The translations under genes and the position numbers were made by a program. Positions 19,844 through 26,412 of a DNA stretch of 64,000 bases are shown here, piece after piece. Origin of the DNA: Candidatus Zhuqueibacterota bacterium (GTDB lineage Bacteria; Zhuqueibacterota; Zhuqueibacteria; JANLFK01; Oleimicrobiaceae); assembly GCA_024655945.1 (NCBI GenBank), contig JANLFK010000001.1, forward strand, positions 588,116 through 652,115, given 5' to 3'. The notes under the pieces are model-generated. The model ran no database searches, was not told the origin of the DNA, and saw only the letters and a list, made by a program, of their open reading frames with translations. Numbering within the stretch: position 1 is the first letter of the stretch; every line of letters starts with the position of its first letter.

Positions 19844-21383
19844 ATGAGAGAACCCAGTGGTCCATTCCGTCTTTTGATCATTTTGCTGGTATTTGTTGGC
19901 ATTGGCGCCCACGCCGGAGAAATCCGCCCCGTGAGCCCGGCCACCGTCCTGGGGCAGGTGGGGGTCGAGTTCGACGTGTATGTGCGTGTGGATCAGGTAA
20001 GCAATCTCTTCGGGGTCAGTTTCGTTTTGACCTTGGACAACGGCTATCTGGAGGCGATTTCCGAAAACCCCGAGTCCTTCATGGGCAGTGACGTGGTATT
20101 TTTGGGCCAGCACAATAATGCCGCCGGCACAGTGGCCATCGGGATTTCCCGCAAAGCTGGGCAGGGAGGCGTCAGCGGCACAGGCAATGTCGCACGGGTG
20201 CGAGAGTTGTGCAAGGGGCCACGCAGGACAGAGTCCTCCGGTTCGGGCTCGCCTCCGTGGAAGCCATCGACCCCTTGGGCGCGTCGATTGTGCTCGCTCC
20301 AGGTGAAGCCACGACTACGCTGTCCAGGTTGGTCACGGTGTGGCCGGGCGATGCTGATGATAACGGCACTGTGAACATCTTCGACATTAACCCGATCGTT
20401 GCCAATCACTGGGGCCGGACGGGGCCGCAGCGGCCCAATGCCTCTGTAAACTGGACGGGCCAGGTATGCCCACCATGGACACCGCCTGACGCAACCTACC
20501 CGACACTAACGGCGACGGCCTGGTGAGCATTTTCGACATTAATGCCGTACCGGTCAACTTCGGCAAGACTCACCCCGGAACCGCCGGGGCCCCACTCCCG
20601 ACACCGGTGGAACCCCAGGTCGTTGCGCTTGGCAAGGAAAGCGGGGTCACCTCACCGCCCATCGCGGCAAAGGGCCCGCAGCAGGTAGACAAGAACCAGG
20701 AATTCTGGGTAGACATCGAGGTTGGAGCCTTAGGCAATCCCGTCACCAACCTCAAGGTGGTCTCTTTCGAACTGACCTACACGAACACTGCCATAGTTGA
20801 CTACCTCAGTTACGAGGTGGGACCTTTCTTGACGGGCGCGATAGCAACCGTGATTCCGGATGACCCCAACGGGAAGGTAAGCGCGTCGGTCTATCGAACC
20901 ACTGGCAGCAACTCCGGCTACGGGGTAGTCTTGCGGCTGAAGTTTCGCACAAGCGCACAGGCCGCAGCGGGGCAGACGGTAAGCTTTGCCTTCGCCCAGG
21001 TGCTAGCCAACAGGGAGGACGGTAGCGTTCAGCCCTTGTCGCCCATTGGTCAGGTGGTCACCATTCAACCTGGCAGCGGCATACGCGCTGACGACTTCAC
21101 GCCCACAGAGTTCGAGCTGGTGCAGAACTACCCCAACCCCTTCAATCCTGGGACGGTCATAGAGTACCGTCTCCCGCAGGCCAGCAGGGTGACGCTGCAA
21201 GTGTACAACTTGGCTGGAGTAAAGGTGGCCTCGCTGCGGGACGGGATGGAGAGTGCGGGTCGTCATTCGGTGGTCTGGGATGGCCGCGACGAAATGGGCA
21301 GGCCTGTTGCAGCGGGGGTATACATGTGCAGGCTGGTGGCCGGAACCTACGACAAGACCATCAGAATGCTGCTGCTCAGGTAG
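19844..21383 (+). pseudogene. cohesin-like / dockerin-like / cohesin-like protein with T9SS type-A sorting domain, carrying two frame disruptions
   Basis: ATG at 19844 (AAAGAGG upstream), signal MREPSGPFRLLIILLVFVGIGAHA; cohesin-like VSFVLTLDNGYLEAI; dockerin repeats GDADDNGTVNIFDINPIV (frame 1) and DTNGDGLVSIFDINAVPV (frame 0); second cohesin-like VVSFELTYTNTAIVDYL; C-terminus LVQNYPNPFNPGTVIEY...GVYMCRL. Reading requires frame 2 -> 1 -> 0. Confidence 0.55.
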
Positions 21384-21682: not shown

Positions 21683-23850
21683 TCACCACCCCACCTCCGC
21701 CACCGCCCGCCAGTGCCGGCCGGGCATGGGGTAGCCGGCGGCCACCTGGTACTGCACGTCGAAGAGGTTGTCCATTCCTGCCCGGAGGTGCCAGGTCACG
21801 CCCCAGAAGGGCACGCGCACGCCCACATTGGCATCGGCCACCGTGTGCGCAGGAAGGCGCCGCGTGTTGGCTTCGTCCGTGTAGCGCGACCCCACATAGG
21901 AGGCAGTGACATGGCCGTAGAACGGGCGACCCTGAAAACCAGCCCGCAACGAGGCCATGTGTTCCGGCCGGTAGATGAGCCGCTTGCCCTGAAGACCAGG
22001 TATGCCACCAGTATCTACCGCCCGCAGATGGCTGTAGTTCGCCTCAAGGATGAGGCGCTGCGCAAACCCCTCCCACTTGAGCCGCAGCTCCTGCCCCGTA
22101 ATCTCCGCCCTGCTCACATTGGCAGGCGACCACTTGTAACTCAGCGGGTCCATCCCCCAGACGATGAGGTCGCGGGCCCAGCGTCGGTACAAGCTGAGCT
22201 CGCCGTGCACGCGTCCGGCAGCCGGCACCCTCACGCTCAGCCCACCATCAATTTCCGTGGTCCGTTCCGGCTTCAGGTTGGGATTGCCCACGGTAAAGGC
22301 GTCCTCCGGCCAGTAGAGGTCGTTGAATGTCGGTGCGCGGAAGGAGCCACCCACATTGCCGCGTATCGCTACGTGGCTGTGCCGCACCCTGCTCAAAATT
22401 ATCCCCACCTTCGGACTGGTGACGAAACCAACCCCCTCGTAGTGGTCGATGCGCGCCGTCGGCAGAAGGTTGGCCTGCCACTCGGGGCGACCGAGCAAGC
22501 CTTTCCAGGCGGCATCGGCCTGGGCAAAGGCGCCGAAAGACTCCCGCGCGTGGGTACCCAACGAGGTACCTCGCGAGCGCTCGTTCAGATAGCTGGCCCC
22601 CAGGGACAGCACCTTGTCCTGTGCCAAGGGCAGGTCACCCTGCAAAGAGGCACCGGCGCTGACGCCTTTGTTGTCGGCATTCGACGGCCAGAAGGGATTG
22701 GGGTCAACATAGCGGGTGGCGAGCTCGTGCCGGAACCCTGTCGCCTGTACGTGCACCTTGCCGCCGAGGCTCGTCTCCACACCCAGCTGCACGCGGCGGC
22801 TGTCGTCGGTCTGCTTTGCCTCGGGACTCGGAAAGGCCAAGGATCCAGGCGCACCCCGCTCGGCATGGGACCACTCGCCGGAAAGGGTGAGGCGTGTGAG
22901 TGGAGAAGACTGCCAGCTCACCTTGCCGAAGAGTTCATCCATGGCAAACGAATTGTTGATGCGCCTGCTCTCCCTTTCCCTGTCCGTGGCTGGGTCCTTG
23001 GTGCGGTAAATAAAGTCGCCGTCGCTGCGGGCGCGGCTTGCGGCCACCAGCAGGCCGACATCGCCCTGCTGGTGACTTGCGCCAAAGTGCGCCGAGCGGC
23101 TGCCCCAAGAGCCCATGCCCGTGGCAAGCGACAGCTGAGGCCTCACTCCTCCCCGCGGCGCGCGTGTGATGATGTTCACCACGCCGGCGGCGGCATCCGC
23201 CCCATAGAGCGAGGAGAGCCCGCTACGCACAAATTCAATGCGCTCCACCGCAGTGAGCGGCAGCAGGCCGAGATCGTACCCCCCGGCTAACGGCGAATTG
23301 AGGCGCGCGCCATCCCAGAGGATGAGCACCTGTTCCGCCGAGGAGCCGCGCACCGACAGCGACTTCATGGCCGCATCCGAGCCATAGCTTTTCACAAAGG
23401 CCCCGGCCACAGGCCGCAAGGCATCAGCCACGGTGCTGCCGTTGACCATCTCTATGTCCGCGGCGGAGACCACCTCCGCCGACACGGGCAACTCCCAGCT
23501 CAGCGATCTGCCACGCTTGCCGGTGACCATCACTTCCTCAAGTTCAATGATGGTCGGCACCAGGCGCACGGACACCTGTTGGGCGCCGCGATCCGCAACG
23601 CGGAGCGTGAGCAGCTGCGGCGCATAGCCCATGTAGGAAACGCGAAGCTGGTACGTTCCTGCCCGCAGCTTGGGAAGCACGAAACGGCCCATTTCGTCGG
23701 TGGCGGCGCCCTGCCCGCCTGGCATAACACTGACGTTGGCGCCGGCGAGCGGTTTGCCGGTGGTGTGGTCCACCACCAGGCCGGTCACTTGCGCAAGGGC
23801 ACTCGAACAAAGGACCGCCACACAGAGGAGCGTCAGGAAAAGCGTCTTTT
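21683..23850 (-). CDS. btuB: TonB-dependent receptor (CarboxypepD_reg-like + plug + beta-barrel), probably cobalamin receptor BtuB-like
   Basis: ATG at 23850 with GGGAGG upstream; signal MKTQKTLFLTLLCVAVLCSSALAQ; plug motifs, C-terminal aromatic AVAEVGW; lies downstream of a cobalamin riboswitch. The btuB assignment is by context. Confidence 0.8.
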
Positions 23851-24421
23851 GCGTCTTCATCTTCGCCTCCCGTGGAACCCGGTTCACTGCTGTCTCTCTC
23901 CTACCTAACACTCCGATGGCCGCCGGCACCAGCAGCGCAAAGATTGCGGTGTTGACGGCGGCGTGGGTCAGGTAGAACACCGCCCCATAGGCGTAGGCTC
24001 CGAGCAAAGCCGGGAGGGTGAGCCGGGTCATCACGAGAAAGCCCACCGTGGTGAGAAAGTCGAAGGTCACCGTGAGGATGAAGCCGCTGGCCGCTAAAAC
24101 CAGCACTTGTGGCCAGTGGATTTTGTGCCGCCGCGCCCTCCTGCCGATCAGCCCCCCCACAAACCCCGCCAGGCCCATCCCCAAGACCTGGCTGACCAGC
24201 AGAGTGACAGAGGAGATGCCGTAGGGGTTGATGGCCGCGTAGAGAAGCTCGCCGACCATGGCCGTGGCCAGTCCTCGCCCGGCACCAAGGAAGGCGCCGG
24301 CGACAAAGGCAGTGGCGGTCACCAGCTCCACGTTGGGCACGCTGCTGAGCAGGTAGCCCAAGGCGACCATCAACCCGGCGAACATGGCCATGCTGGCCAA
24401 AGAAACGGTGCCCGGTCTCAC
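23851..24421 (-). CDS. ECF-transporter S-component-like small membrane protein (possibly cobalamin-specific); 3' end undefined
   Basis: Hydrophobic multi-TM translation MAMFAGLMVALGYLL...LLVPAAIGVLGRR; GTG at 24421 with GAGGAGGAA upstream (alternative ATG 24391); no stop codon before the btuB start, same frame. Confidence 0.55.
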
Positions 24422-24478
24422 GACCTCATTCCTCCTCTGCCATGCGCGAGCACTCCACCACGCGGCGGGCGGCGCCAA

Positions 24479-24514
24479 CAAAAAAACCCTGGCCTCCTCA
24501 AACAGACCAGGGTT
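24479..24514 (-). terminator. intrinsic terminator / riboswitch expression-platform hairpin
   Basis: Minus strand AACCCTGG-14 nt loop-CCAGGGTT followed by TTTTTTT; sits between the riboswitch aptamer and the RBS. Confidence 0.5.
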
Positions 24515-24569
24515 CGCACGTCGCGCACGCTACGCACCGACACCTCACCCGCGGAGGCTCACACGGTGA

Positions 24570-24760
24570 TACCGACTCCGGCAGGTTTCCTGGCTCTCCC
24601 GACCCTGGTCGCCTTCCCATCCAAGCTGCGGACAGTGGCACCGTTGACCAGGGCACCGGCGCATCGACTCATGCGCCCGGGATCACAGTAGCGGGGCTGC
24701 GACGGACTTGCACCGTCTTCCCTTTTCCTCCCCGGCGGGGAGCACCGGAATCTACGCCCA
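24570..24760 (-). promoter_or_regulatory. cobalamin (AdoCbl) riboswitch
   Basis: Minus strand reads AAGGGAAGACGGTGCAAGTCCGTCGCAGCCCCGCTACTGTGA ... GCCACTG ... GGGAAGGC ... AGCCAGGAAACCTGCC, matching the conserved core and B12 box of the cobalamin riboswitch family. Confidence 0.8.
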
Positions 24761-24783
24761 TATCGCCAAAGAGCGACGGTGCA

Positions 24784-24812
24784 AATATAGCACAGCGCGA
24801 AGGCAATTGCAA
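24784..24812 (-). promoter_or_regulatory. sigma-70-like promoter for the riboswitch operon (TTGCAA-17-TATATT)
   Basis: Minus strand TTGCAA (plus 24807-24812), 17-nt spacer, TATATT (plus 24784-24789), about 25 nt upstream of the aptamer. Confidence 0.45.
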
Positions 24813-24936
24813 GGAAAAAATGCTCACGGGCAAGGTTTCCGCGGAAAATTTGTAGCGGCCCGCCAGTTGGAACTTTTCCCTCTCTGAGGAAGTCTGACCA
24901 GCGTCAACGCGTTCGCACAAGTCTGAGGAGGTGGAC

Positions 24937-26412
24937 GTGAAGACGCGCGCAAGAATTTGGCTGGCAACGGTCGTGGTAGGCAGTCTGCTTTCCTGTTCTC
25001 CGAGTCACAGGACTTCCCTGCAGAGCAAGATCGACGAGTACATGCGCCGCATGACTGCCCGCGGGTTTTCCGGGGCGCTCTTGGTGGCCAAAGAGGGCAA
25101 AATCATTTTGGCCAAAGGCTACGGGCTGAGCGATCGCCAACGGGGCGTCCCTGTCACTGCCGCGACGGTCTTCACCGTGGGGTCCATCACCAAGCAGTTC
25201 ACGGCCACGGCCATCCTCAAACTTCAGCAGATGGGGAAGCTGAACGTGCACGATCCCATCACCCGCTTCTTCCCGGATGTCCCGCTGGACAAAGCGGACA
25301 TCACCCTCCATCACCTGCTCACCCACACGGCCGGCTTCCCTGGCGCCATCGGCGACGATTTTGAGCCCATCGGCCGCCAGGAGTTCGTGGCCCTTGCCAT
25401 GCGCACGCCCCTCCTCTTCGCCCCCGGGGAACGATACCACTACTCCAATGTCGGCTACAGCCTGCTGGGGGCGATCATCGAGGAGCTCACAGGGCGACCG
25501 TATGAGCGCTTCCTGCACGAGCACCTTTTCGCACCAGCGGGCATGGCGGAAACCGGCTATGTGCTTCCCTCCTGGAAGGAAGGGCAATTGGCGCACGGGT
25601 ACCGCGGCGCCCGCGATTGGGGAACCCTGCGCGACCATCCGTGGGGCAGCGACGGCCCCTACTGGCACCTGCGCGCGAACGGCGGTATCCTCTCCACGGT
25701 CGGTGACCTTTACAAGTGGCACCTGGCCCTCGAGAGTGACTGCATTCTGCCCGATAGCCTGCGCGCGCTTCTCTCCCACCCTTTCGTGCGCGAAGGCCCT
25801 GATGCCGACTCCTTCTACGGCTACGGCTGGTCGATTTCCACAACGCCCAGGGGAACACGGCTTGTGGCCCACAGTGGCGGCAACGGCATCTTCTCTGCGG
25901 ACTTGCTGCGTTTTCTCGATGAGGGGGTGGCCATCATCTGTCTGGCGAACGGGGCCGGCAAACCGGCCTGGCAGGTGAGCCAGTCGGTGGCACGCATCGT
26001 GTTTGGCGAGCGATATGAGCTGCCCCCGGAGAAGACCGAACTCCTGGATCTTGCCACGCTGGCCAGCTCGCCCATGGGGGCTCACGCCATGGCGCTCTTG
26101 GAAATCCTGGCCCGGGGAGATACCGGCGCCGCCGCCCGAAACTTGAGCGTGCATTTCGCGGAATCCTACTGCCAGCCGGAGAGGCGACAGCGCCTGCTGG
26201 CCTTTGTGCAGCGCGTCGGCAGCAGACAGGCGCCCTTGCGTCTTGTCAAAGCAGAGAAAGTCGGCCCCGCCACCCTCGAGTTCACCGCCCAGTCAGAAAA
26301 GACGGGCGACTGGTGGCTGCTCACGATAGATTTCGAGGAGCAAGCTCCCCACCGCATCGCCGGCATACGGATGCAGGACACGGTGCCGCCAGAAGGCCAG
26401 GAGGAACAGTAA
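24937..26412 (+). CDS. serine hydrolase, beta-lactamase/PBP-like family lipoprotein
   Basis: SxxK motif SITK, YSN motif, HSGG; lipobox LLSC; GTG at 24937 six nt after GGAG (track start 24931). Confidence 0.85.
   Translation: MKTRARIWLATVVVGSLLSCSPSHRTSLQSKIDEYMRRMTARGFSGALLVAKEGKIILAKGYGLSDRQRGVPVTAATVFTVGSITKQFTATAILKLQQMGKLNVHDPITRFFPDVPLDKADITLHHLLTHTAGFPGAIGDDFEPIGRQEFVALAMRTPLLFAPGERYHYSNVGYSLLGAIIEELTGRPYERFLHEHLFAPAGMAETGYVLPSWKEGQLAHGYRGARDWGTLRDHPWGSDGPYWHLRANGGILSTVGDLYKWHLALESDCILPDSLRALLSHPFVREGPDADSFYGYGWSISTTPRGTRLVAHSGGNGIFSADLLRFLDEGVAIICLANGAGKPAWQVSQSVARIVFGERYELPPEKTELLDLATLASSPMGAHAMALLEILARGDTGAAARNLSVHFAESYCQPERRQRLLAFVQRVGSRQAPLRLVKAEKVGPATLEFTAQSEKTGDWWLLTIDFEEQAPHRIAGIRMQDTVPPEGQEEQ

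What the first reader, a model, noticed from the sequence alone, without database searches (positions are those of the whole stretch)
23830..23880. ECF-S-like membrane protein ORF runs in frame into the BtuB-like receptor gene with no stop codon
The six-frame track gives one 932-aa ORF (21683-24481) because the small multi-TM protein reads ...GVLGRRETAVNRVPREAK directly into MKTQKT..., the receptor start, which has its own GGGAGG RBS and signal peptide. A shifted frame has a TGA at the expected end (...GERQQ*), pointing to a 1-nt indel; the alternative is a real translational fusion, which would be topologically odd.
Basis: seen in the sequence. Interest (0 to 1): 0.4.

Follow-up and report, generated by a model that had tools for sequence, protein, structure and literature searches.

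The report
Inner-membrane B12 transporter fused to outer-membrane receptor
One B12-riboswitch-controlled gene encodes both a small inner-membrane vitamin transporter and the outer-membrane B12 receptor, joined through the receptor's own signal peptide; the fusion is conserved in related bacteria, so it is not a sequencing error.

Summary
On the minus strand an ECF-S/CbrT-like six-helix membrane protein (GTG 24421) reads without a stop into a BtuB-like TonB-dependent receptor (ATG 23860, stop 21683).

Five further orthologues, 67-86% identical and from independent assemblies, have the same in-frame junction. The linker length is identical, the internal Met is invariant and every one has an AxA|Q signal-peptidase site. 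All are preceded by a cobalamin riboswitch. The closest unfused relative (L092) has a stop plus a 45-nt spacer at this position.

Unrelated lineages fuse the same small domain to other outer-membrane barrels; one KSB1 cluster has 40 members of which the 12 full-length ones listed are 848-874 aa.

The topology is not odd. The small domain ends in the cytoplasm, so the receptor's signal peptide inserts in-to-out as in a normal precursor.

Best model: a polyprotein cut by signal peptidase I into a 7-helix inner-membrane B12 transporter and a mature receptor. A conserved Shine-Dalgarno/ATG probably also allows separate receptor translation. Cleavage and transport are inferred, not shown. I found no description of this architecture in the literature searched.

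The parts
24784..24812 (-). Sigma-70-like promoter candidate (TTGCAA-17-TATATT, with TG) upstream of the riboswitch
   Evidence: Consensus scan only, 9/12 matches. Not otherwise tested.
24563..24764 (-). Cobalamin riboswitch aptamer (RF00174)
   Evidence: 99.2 bits against a gathering score of 31.5, E 1.8e-24, full model 1-189. The same riboswitch precedes every fused orthologue.
24478..24515 (-). Intrinsic-terminator-like hairpin plus T-run; the likely expression platform of the riboswitch
   Evidence: 12-pair stem GAACCCTGG...CCAGGGTTT followed by TTTTGTT. The TTG 'start' of the 932-aa ORF lies inside it.
24419..24437 (-). Shine-Dalgarno GAGGAGGA (24437-24430) and the likely GTG start (24421-24419) of the fused ORF
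   Evidence: Read from the sequence. The N-terminal residues RPGT[IV]SLA are conserved in P0012-P0014, with RRETISLA in P0015.
21683..24421 (-). Whole fused ORF: 912 codons plus stop
   Evidence: P0011 is 100% identical and was called by JGI as 902 aa from ATG 24391.
23903..24421 (-). ECF-S / CbrT-like six-helix inner-membrane domain (aa 1-173)
   Evidence: PF12822 at 28.5 bits, just under its 30.7 cut-off. The family profile hits CbrT 6FNP_A at E 7.9e-7. The AF2 model has six helices, and the top 22 Foldseek PDB hits are all ECF S-components, with target-normalised TM-score up to 0.74. Substitution pattern by codon position is 0.21/0.12/0.45 differences per site, as expected under purifying selection.
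23861..23902 (-). 14-aa basic linker RRETAVNRVPREAK (aa 174-187) with no stop codon
   Evidence: Its length is identical in all six orthologues and amino-acid identity is only 46%. AF2 pLDDT is below 50, so it is probably disordered.
23866..23871 (-). Internal Shine-Dalgarno GGGAGG, 5 nt before the receptor ATG
   Evidence: GGAGG is invariant in six orthologues (GGGAGG in five, AGGAGG in one). The SD-ATG block shows 0.21 differences per site at third codon positions, against 0.45-0.57 in the flanks.
23858..23860 (-). Internal ATG (Met188), the ancestral receptor start
   Evidence: Invariant in all fused orthologues and in the unfused P0018.
23792..23860 (-). Sec-type signal peptide MKTQKTLFLTLLCVAVLCSSALA|Q (aa 188-210), which becomes helix 7 in the fused precursor
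   Evidence: n/h/c anatomy is visible by inspection. AxA|Q is conserved in all six (ALA, AFA, ARA, ARA, AQA, ADA). It has the same 23-aa design as the unfused P0018. AF2 predicts a helix at 185-209.
23525..23788 (-). CarboxypepD_reg-like N-terminal extension of the receptor
   Evidence: PF13715 at 1.9e-19 and PF13620 at 9.2e-16.
23519..23545 (-). TonB-box-like segment ELEEVMVTG (aa 293-301)
   Evidence: E295-T300 are invariant in the alignment. The assignment as a TonB box rests on my knowledge of SusC/CarboxypepD_reg-type receptors.
23180..23494 (-). Plug domain
   Evidence: PF07715 at 1.7e-20, covering 4-107 of 107 profile positions.
21764..22915 (-). TonB-dependent receptor beta-barrel, ending in a C-terminal Trp
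   Evidence: PF00593 at 3.2e-39. The best NCBIfam hit is TonB-B12 TIGR01779, 194 bits, below its cut-off. The best PDB hits are E. coli BtuB at 1e-26 and Bacteroides BtuB1.

Best explanation
This is a genuine, conserved gene fusion, probably a 'two-membrane polyprotein'.

What is shown:
- One cobalamin-riboswitch-controlled ORF encodes (i) an ECF-S/CbrT-like six-helix inner-membrane domain, (ii) a 14-aa basic linker, (iii) the receptor's own Sec signal peptide and (iv) a complete BtuB-like TonB-dependent receptor.
- The fusion is real and under selection.
- The N-terminal domain has the S-component fold.
- The operon is B12-regulated.

What is inferred:
- The S-like domain ends in the cytoplasm, so the signal peptide inserts in-to-out as a seventh helix.
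- Signal peptidase I cuts after the conserved AxA (ALA|Q). That releases the mature receptor (about 702 aa) into the periplasm for BAM-dependent insertion into the outer membrane.
- A protein of about 210 aa and 7 helices stays in the inner membrane and carries B12 across it, either alone like BtuM or BioY, or with an ECF module encoded elsewhere.
- The Shine-Dalgarno and ATG in front of the signal peptide are conserved at the nucleotide level. The receptor is therefore probably also made on its own, which would give more receptor than transporter.

The fusion arose from a tightly linked small-gene/receptor pair by loss of the stop and spacer.
For: Conservation of the fusion:
- Six orthologues (window/P0011, P0012, P0013, P0014=L006, P0015, P0016), 67-100% identical, come from different projects and assemblers. 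P0016 was seen in three samples. All have one ORF of 902-924 aa, an equal-length linker and an invariant Met188.
- Frames +1 and +2 carry 3-6 stops around every junction.
- The small domain shows coding-type substitution (codon positions 1/2/3 = 0.21/0.12/0.45 differences per site, 77% aa identity), so it is not decaying.

Origin:
- The nearest unfused relative, L092, has small gene - TAA - 45 nt with AAGGAGG - ATG receptor.

The same kind of fusion elsewhere:
- 28 of the 150 best 50%-cluster representatives of the small domain, besides P0016, are 766-927 aa with the domain at the N-terminus, followed by a short basic stretch and a hydrophobic segment. In many a small-residue (AxA-like) motif follows. 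27 of the 28 have no Met there.
- Of the 10 scanned, seven have ECF-S Pfam hits, five of those also have Plug, and two of those also have the TonB barrel.
- The P0027 cluster has 40 members; the 12 full-length ones listed are 848-874 aa (three others are partial), several from KSB1 MAGs.
- The partner type differs. The window clade has a BtuB-like receptor and the others a divergent TBDR, so the fusions are independent.

Topology and fold:
- K/R-rich loops at aa 93-105 and 166-193.
- AF2 gives six helices, a disordered linker and then another helix.
- The top Foldseek hits are all S-components.

Link to B12:
- RF00174 lies upstream of every fused orthologue and of unfused small genes in L007, L008, L032, L038 and L040.
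- The family profile hits CbrT and the receptor hits BtuB.

Internal start:
- The SD-ATG block is conserved, including third codon positions.
Against: - There is no protein-level evidence. Cleavage of the internal signal peptide, the fate of the 7-helix product and B12 transport are all inferred.
- No signal-peptide predictor was available; the AxA assignment is by inspection.
- The window's small domain scores just below Pfam's PF12822 cut-off (28.5 against 30.7 bits).
- Conservation of 'RE.xM' could reflect a protein-level requirement of the signal peptide's n-region rather than a start site.
- The three closest stand-alone homologues (L001, L004, L005) have no cobalamin riboswitch, so the family's substrate may not be uniform.
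- Whether the genome has an ECF module is unknown. None is in the 64-kb window.
- The fraction of fused cluster representatives may be inflated if the clustering picks the longest member as representative.
Confidence: 0.72

Rival explanations
1. Sequencing or assembly error: a 1-nt indel near 23861-23905 removed the small gene's stop.
For: Out-of-frame stops lie close by: TGA 23886-23884, TAG 23907-23905 and the TGA of ATGA at 23859-23857. Stand-alone homologues are 165-211 aa. In L001 the two genes are separated by TAG-cc-ATG.
Against: The same in-frame junction, with different nucleotides, occurs in five other orthologous sequences from independent assemblies. One of them was recovered in three samples. 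No indel separates any of them in the linker.
Confidence: 0.01
2. Tolerated stop-loss. The functional receptor comes only from the internal SD/ATG, and the read-through fusion product is a useless by-product that is degraded.
For: The internal SD and ATG are conserved at the nucleotide level. The unfused ancestor-like state exists in L092.
Against: Without a stop, the small domain can only be made as part of the fusion. Yet it is under clear purifying selection and keeps all family-invariant residues. The linker has kept its exact length across about 33% amino-acid divergence. Of the 28 fused representatives outside this clade, 27 have no Met before the hydrophobic segment and are therefore obligate fusions.
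Confidence: 0.08
3. The fusion is translated but not cleaved. A single polypeptide is anchored in the inner membrane and carries its barrel in the outer membrane, as a trans-envelope tether.
For: Nothing in the sequence forbids it outright. In the X- and Y-type fusions a long A/P/S/D-rich linker follows the hydrophobic segment and could span the periplasm.
Against: In the window clade the CarboxypepD_reg domain begins two residues after the AxA site, so there is no spacer. The hydrophobic stretch from the last basic residue to the cleavage site is only 18 aa, typical of a cleaved signal peptide. It is the same 23-aa design as in the unfused P0018. AxA|Q is conserved 6 of 6.
Confidence: 0.07
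4. Programmed +1 or -1 frameshifting, or another recoding event, ends the small protein at an out-of-frame stop such as the TGA of ATGA.
For: ATGA (TGA in the +1 frame overlapping the receptor start) is present in four of the six distinct orthologues: window, L086, L088 and L089. L090 and L091 carry the same protein as L089.
Against: L087 and L006 have ATGG, so no such stop. No out-of-frame stop position is common to all six. No slippery motif was noted on reading the junction sequences (not searched for systematically). No conserved RNA structure was found around the junction: -5 kcal/mol, 0 covarying pairs.
Confidence: 0.02

Closest known systems
BtuM with BtuB in Proteobacteria (BtuM of Thiobacillus denitrificans; Rempel et al. 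2018, PMC6072759)
   Same: A small S-component-like inner-membrane protein of about 20 kDa, genomically linked to the outer-membrane B12 receptor in diderm bacteria. It is thought to move B12 across the inner membrane without an ECF module.
   Different: The family profile, searched against the PDB chain sequences at E <= 10, returned only 6FNP_A and one weak unrelated hit, so it found no similarity to BtuM (entry 6FFV, from my memory). The family has no invariant cysteine, whereas BtuM binds cobalt through a cysteine. Here the two proteins are one ORF; the BtuM paper describes co-localisation with the gene for BtuB and its text contains no mention of a gene fusion.
CbrT, the cobalamin S-component of ECF-CbrT (Lactobacillus delbrueckii; PDB 6FNP chain A, deposited name only 'Membrane protein'). 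Identification of 6FNP as ECF-CbrT is from my knowledge; ECF-CbrT is named as a B12 ECF transporter in PMC6072759.
   Same: It is the only solved structure the family profile hits by sequence (E 7.9e-7 over 171 of 179 profile positions). The PNV-x-x-VT and H-x3-N motifs are shared. Both are linked to B12.
   Different: CbrT belongs to monoderm Firmicutes, works with EcfAA'T, is a separate gene and has no outer-membrane partner (my knowledge). Identity is low. An ECF module is not seen near any locus here.
BtuB (E. coli 1NQE and others; Bacteroides BtuB1 8BLW)
   Same: The C-terminal 702 aa have Plug plus a 22-strand-type barrel. BtuB entries are the best PDB and NCBIfam matches, and a cobalamin riboswitch lies upstream.
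   Different: The score is far below the TIGR01779 equivalog cut-off (194 against 599.7 bits). The receptor carries a CarboxypepD_reg N-terminal extension. It is translated in frame with an inner-membrane protein.
FbcH cytochrome b-c1 polyprotein of Bradyrhizobium japonicum (my own knowledge: Thony-Meyer, Hennecke and co-workers, about 1989-1991; not retrievable in the paper library)
   Same: A multi-helix inner-membrane protein is followed in the same ORF by an internal signal peptide that signal peptidase cuts, giving two mature proteins.
   Different: Both FbcH products stay at the inner membrane in one complex. Here the second product would go to the outer membrane.
X-type ECF-S/TBDR fusions in KSB1 and other lineages (for example RKY80562.1, RKY88658.1 and MCD6166532.1, the last annotated 'ECF transporter S component', 855 aa)
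   Same: The same N-terminal family, the same basic stretch plus hydrophobic segment, often followed by small residues, and then a TonB-dependent barrel.
   Different: The partner is a different, divergent TBDR with only about 30-50 bits to the window's receptor. There is no internal Met or SD and the linker is very short. A long TonB-box-rich spacer follows the signal peptide. This is an independent fusion event.

Membership tests
ECF transporter S-component (PF12822 / PF07155 superfamily) | Six-helix S-component fold | tested here: met
   AF2 (pLDDT 77) gives six helices. Foldseek PDB ranks 1-22 are all S-components (PanT, FolT, RibU, ThiT, BioY), with probability 0.77-1.00 and target-normalised TM-score up to 0.74.
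ECF transporter S-component (PF12822 / PF07155 superfamily) | Pfam gathering score reached | tested here: inconclusive
   The window domain scores 28.5 bits against the 30.7 cut-off (E 1.9e-6). Relatives pass, for example P0028 at 43.0 bits on PF12822 and 46.4 bits on PF07155.
ECF transporter S-component (PF12822 / PF07155 superfamily) | Works with an EcfA/A'/T energising module | not testable with these tools
   No ABC signature plus Walker A ORF is in the 64-kb window, and none appears in the listed neighbours of homologous loci. The whole genome could not be searched.
CbrT (cobalamin S-component) | Sequence similarity to CbrT | tested here: met
   The profile hits 6FNP_A at E 7.9e-7 with nearly full-length alignment. 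The similarity is weak, at superfamily to subfamily level.
CbrT (cobalamin S-component) | Cobalamin-linked regulation or context | tested here: met
   RF00174 lies upstream in the window, in all fused orthologues and in five unfused loci. It is absent in L001, L004 and L005.
CbrT (cobalamin S-component) | Binds or transports cobalamin | not testable with these tools
   Needs a growth-rescue or binding assay.
BtuM | Sequence similarity to BtuM | tested here: not met
   The profile search of all PDB chains at E <= 10 found only 6FNP_A and one spurious hit. That BtuM is in that library as entry 6FFV is from my memory.
BtuM | Conserved cysteine ligand to cobalt | tested here: not met
   No Cys is among the invariant or nearly invariant columns of the family. 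The BtuM requirement is taken from PMC6072759.
TonB-dependent receptor / BtuB | Plug plus beta-barrel plus TonB-box-like segment | tested here: met
   PF07715 at 1.7e-20 and PF00593 at 3.2e-39. ELEEVMVTG is invariant.
TonB-dependent receptor / BtuB | BtuB equivalog score (TIGR01779 / NF007926) | tested here: not met
   194 bits against a 599.7 cut-off, and 131 against 836. BtuB is nevertheless the top hit in NCBIfam and the PDB.
Cobalamin riboswitch RF00174 | Covariance-model score above gathering | tested here: met
   99.2 bits against 31.5.
Sec type I signal peptide, used internally (FbcH-like polyprotein) | n/h/c regions with small residues at -3 and -1, preceded by a cytoplasmic segment | tested here: met
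   MKTQK / TLFLTLLCVAVLCSS / ALA|Q. AxA|Q is present in 6 of 6 orthologues. The basic linker and the K/R-rich loops follow the positive-inside rule. This was done by inspection only, without a dedicated predictor.
Sec type I signal peptide, used internally (FbcH-like polyprotein) | Actual cleavage into two mature proteins | not testable with these tools
   Needs proteomics or tagged expression.

The most novel reading that the evidence does not exclude
The fusion is not only a processed polyprotein. It would physically couple the two membranes, in either of two ways.

- The precursor stays uncleaved for some time or permanently. In the X and Y types, the long TonB-box-rich spacer would then span the periplasm.
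- Alternatively, co-translational SRP targeting by the S-like domain places the receptor and its inner-membrane transporter at the same envelope site.

Either way the result would be a dedicated trans-envelope B12 uptake unit built from one polypeptide. It would have evolved several times independently.
Probability: 0.08. Interest if true: 0.9.

Novelty: new variant of a known kind. Interest (0 to 1): 0.6.

Why it matters
- **Two membranes, one ORF.** A single reading frame that feeds one protein to the inner membrane and another to the outer membrane through an internal signal peptide is very unusual for bacteria. I know of no described case that involves a TonB-dependent receptor.

- **Evidence of a functional pairing.** The fusion recurs with three different barrel partners. 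That is strong 'Rosetta-stone' evidence that this uncharacterised CbrT-like family is the inner-membrane partner of outer-membrane B12 receptors in KSB1/Zhuqueibacterota and related uncultured diderms. According to the BtuM paper, BtuCDF is predicted in only about 50% of Cbl-auxotrophic bacteria, and many Gram-negative auxotrophs lack it while still encoding BtuB.

- **Annotation.** These ORFs are currently named 'TonB-dependent receptor', 'outer membrane cobalamin receptor', 'ECF transporter S component' or 'hypothetical'. Metabolic reconstructions therefore miss one of the two functions.

- **Quality control.** This is a case where an apparent missing stop should not be 'corrected' as a frameshift.

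Tried and rejected
- **Indel artefact.** Rejected on the orthologue comparison.
- **Programmed frameshift to the TGA of ATGA.** That stop is missing in L087 and L006.
- **SD-sequestering or other conserved RNA structure at the junction.** RNAalifold gave -5 kcal/mol and no covariation.
- **Exact look-ups of the 912-aa and 725-aa products.** Both failed because JGI called the ORF from ATG 24391. The record was recovered through P0011.
- **Cobalamin riboswitch in the closest stand-alone homologues L001, L004 and L005.** None found.
- **BtuM membership.** No sequence hit and no conserved Cys.
- **Literature searches.** Searches for an S-component/TBDR fusion, for internal-signal-peptide polyproteins in bacteria and for FbcH returned nothing relevant. 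The Zhuqueibacterota paper does not mention B12 or TonB.
- **ECF-module ATPase in the window.** Not found. This says nothing about the rest of the genome.
- **First NCBIfam call.** It failed on a coordinate slip and was repeated correctly.
Full report
**What is in the window**

On the minus strand there is a two-part transport locus under one leader.
- A promoter-like site lies at 24812-24784.
- A full-length cobalamin riboswitch follows at 24764-24563 (RF00174, 99.2 bits against a gathering score of 31.5).
- A terminator-like hairpin with a T-run lies at 24515-24478.
- A strong Shine-Dalgarno (GAGGAGGA, 24437-24430) and GTG 24421 come next.
- From there a single ORF runs to the stop at 21685-21683.

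The mechanical 932-aa ORF begins at a TTG inside the terminator T-run. The biological start is most likely GTG 24421 (912 aa), because the residues after it are conserved in orthologues. JGI called ATG 24391 (902 aa).

Pfam finds an ECF S-component match at the N-terminus (PF12822, 28.5 bits, just under the 30.7 cut-off). After that come CarboxypepD_reg, Plug and the TonB-dependent barrel.

**The observation**

The junction reads ...VLGRRETAVNRVPREAK-MKTQKTLFLTLLCVAVLCSSALA|QVTG... with no stop. GGGAGG lies 5 nt before the internal ATG (23860-23858).

**Is it an error?**

No.
- A scan of GTDB species representatives gave L006, a MAG (accession JBBIKH01) that is 67% identical at the protein level. 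It has a 938-aa ORF with the same continuity.
- A search of the large protein collection returned the window's own product (P0011) and five further fused proteins: P0012 (86%), P0013 (69%), P0014 (=L006), P0015 (67%, on a 505-kb contig) and P0016 (67%, identical in three independent runs).
- In all six the linker is exactly 14 residues and Met188 is invariant. The signal peptide ends in AxA|Q (ALA, AFA, ARA, ARA, AQA, ADA).
- The nucleotides differ, so this is not one error copied. The other two frames carry 3-6 stops around each junction.
- All six loci have the cobalamin riboswitch upstream. L088-L091 share the divergent beta-lactamase-family neighbour with the window.
- The small domain evolves like a coding sequence under purifying selection: 0.21/0.12/0.45 differences per site at codon positions 1/2/3, and 77% amino-acid identity.

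**Where it came from**

The closest unfused relative of the receptor is P0018 (46% identity, locus L092). There the small gene ends ...TRGSSRV-TAA, followed by 45 nt containing AAGGAGG and then the receptor ATG. The window clade is that arrangement with the stop and spacer lost and the SD and ATG kept.

More distant genomes show other arrangements.
- L008 and L040 have riboswitch, small gene, and a tightly abutting or overlapping divergent 'X-type' TBDR, followed by the BtuB-like 'B-type' receptor. In L008 that receptor has a second riboswitch of its own.
- In L001 the junction is TAG-cc-ATG.

**The same kind of fusion elsewhere**

- A phmmer search with the 187-aa domain against 1.84 billion cluster representatives gave 399 hits. 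Among the best 150, P0016 plus 28 others are 766-927 aa with the domain at the N-terminus.
- Each of these continues with a short basic stretch and a 12-aa hydrophobic core. In many, small residues (AxA-like) follow. 27 of the 28 have no Met in between, so they are obligate fusions.
- Of the 10 scanned with Pfam, seven have ECF-S hits, five of those also have Plug and two of those also have the TonB barrel.
- By BLAST, 13 of the 28 C-terminal halves score best against the X-type partner, one (P0126) hits X and B about equally weakly, three hit the X-type partner only weakly (33-34 bits), and 11 match nothing ('Y-type').
- The P0027 cluster alone has 40 members. The 12 full-length ones listed are 848-874 aa (three others are partial), several from KSB1 MAGs.
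- A rough NJ tree scatters the fused state, with about 13 parsimony changes. The six B-type proteins form one clade.

Fusion of this domain to an outer-membrane barrel has therefore happened repeatedly, and the window represents a separate, B-type event.

One caveat applies. Cluster representatives may be biased towards long sequences, so 29 of 150 is not a frequency.

**What the N-terminal domain is**

- The family profile hits one solved structure by sequence: 6FNP chain A. I identify this as CbrT, the cobalamin S-component, from my own knowledge. The hit has E 7.9e-7 and shares the PNVxxVT and Hx3N motifs.
- AlphaFold2 on a 16-sequence alignment (pLDDT 77) gives six helices, a disordered linker (177-189), a helix at 185-209 and then beta strands.
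- Foldseek against the PDB puts only ECF S-components in ranks 1-22.
- BtuM is not detectably related, and the family has no conserved cysteine.

**Topology and mechanism (inference)**

The K/R-rich loop at 93-105 and the K/R-rich linker at 166-193 place the C-terminus of helix 6 in the cytoplasm, as does the known S-component topology. The next hydrophobic segment then crosses in-to-out exactly like an ordinary signal peptide and presents ALA|Q at the periplasmic face.

Only 18 residues separate the last basic residue from the cleavage site. The peptide has the same 23-aa design as in the unfused P0018. It therefore looks like a cleaved signal peptide rather than a stable anchor.

Cleavage would release a normal mature receptor, whose CarboxypepD_reg domain starts at +2. 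It would leave a 7-helix protein of about 210 aa in the inner membrane.

The block ACGGGAGGnnnnnATG is conserved even at third codon positions (0.21 differences per site against 0.45-0.57 in the flanks). This suggests the receptor's own start site is still used, so that the receptor can exceed the transporter in amount. No conserved RNA structure surrounds it.

**Comparison with known systems and novelty**

- Functionally this resembles the BtuM/BtuB and CbrT systems.
- Mechanistically it resembles the FbcH cytochrome b-c1 polyprotein (from my own knowledge).
- I found no paper describing an S-component/TonB-dependent-receptor fusion.
- Database names for these proteins are 'TonB-dependent receptor', 'outer membrane cobalamin receptor', 'ECF transporter S component' or 'hypothetical'.

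I rate it a new variant of known kinds, of moderate to high interest. The ORF fusion is essentially certain. Processing, internal initiation and B12 transport are well-motivated inferences that need experiments.

The organism belongs to Ca. Zhuqueibacterota (formerly KSB1), family Oleimicrobiaceae or near it. This follows from the names on the closest relatives.

Noticed in passing
P0062, P0080, P0114, P0130, P0172 and other fused representatives (residues ~200-330): After the internal signal peptide, the X- and Y-type fusions carry a long A/P/S/D-rich spacer with TonB-box-like D[ST][LIVM]x[VILA] motifs, repeated in some of them. In each group 12 were seen against about 1 expected from shuffles.
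   Followed up: partly
P0084, P0105, P0114, P0130, P0141, P0156, P0172 (C-terminal ~600 aa): 'Y-type' fusion partners have no BLAST similarity to the X- or B-type receptors. The three scanned with Pfam (P0084, P0114, P0156) have no hit. Several share a motif GW[QHR]RP[LI]W.PF. They may be a very divergent or new outer-membrane barrel family.
   Followed up: partly
L007 1-161 and 2733-2863; L008 5-197 and 2784-2980; L032 39-196 and 2723-2910: Each locus has two cobalamin riboswitches. In L008 the first precedes the small gene and an X-type TBDR, and the second precedes the B-type BtuB-like receptor. L007 and L032 have the same spacing but their ORFs were not read.
   Followed up: partly
L001 1250-2635: In this stand-alone homologue the small gene directly follows panB (pantoate transferase) and has no cobalamin riboswitch. 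The substrate of the family may not be B12 everywhere.
   Followed up: no
window 24931-26412 (+): A beta-lactamase-family (PF00144) gene is divergently transcribed from the riboswitch promoter region. It is syntenic in L088-L091.
   Followed up: no
window 20523-21383 (+): A secreted protein with a FlgD_ig / T9SS-type C-terminal tail is convergent with the fused ORF. Further FlgD_ig-tailed genes lie near the orthologous loci.
   Followed up: no
window 21713-23290 (+): A 525-aa ORF lies antisense to the receptor gene. It is most likely a shadow ORF of high-GC coding DNA rather than a gene.
   Followed up: no
L008 5256-6509; L040 7088-8230: A conserved P-loop protein (N-terminus ...VHI.[AS]FKSIR.[ML][ST][LF]PLDP[KR]ITVLIGPNESGKTN...) follows the B-type receptor in both distant loci.
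   Followed up: no
P0164 residues ~172-186: In this Y-type fusion the internal hydrophobic segment ends in LVAC, which resembles a lipobox. It may be a lipoprotein-type internal signal rather than a signal peptidase I site.
   Followed up: no
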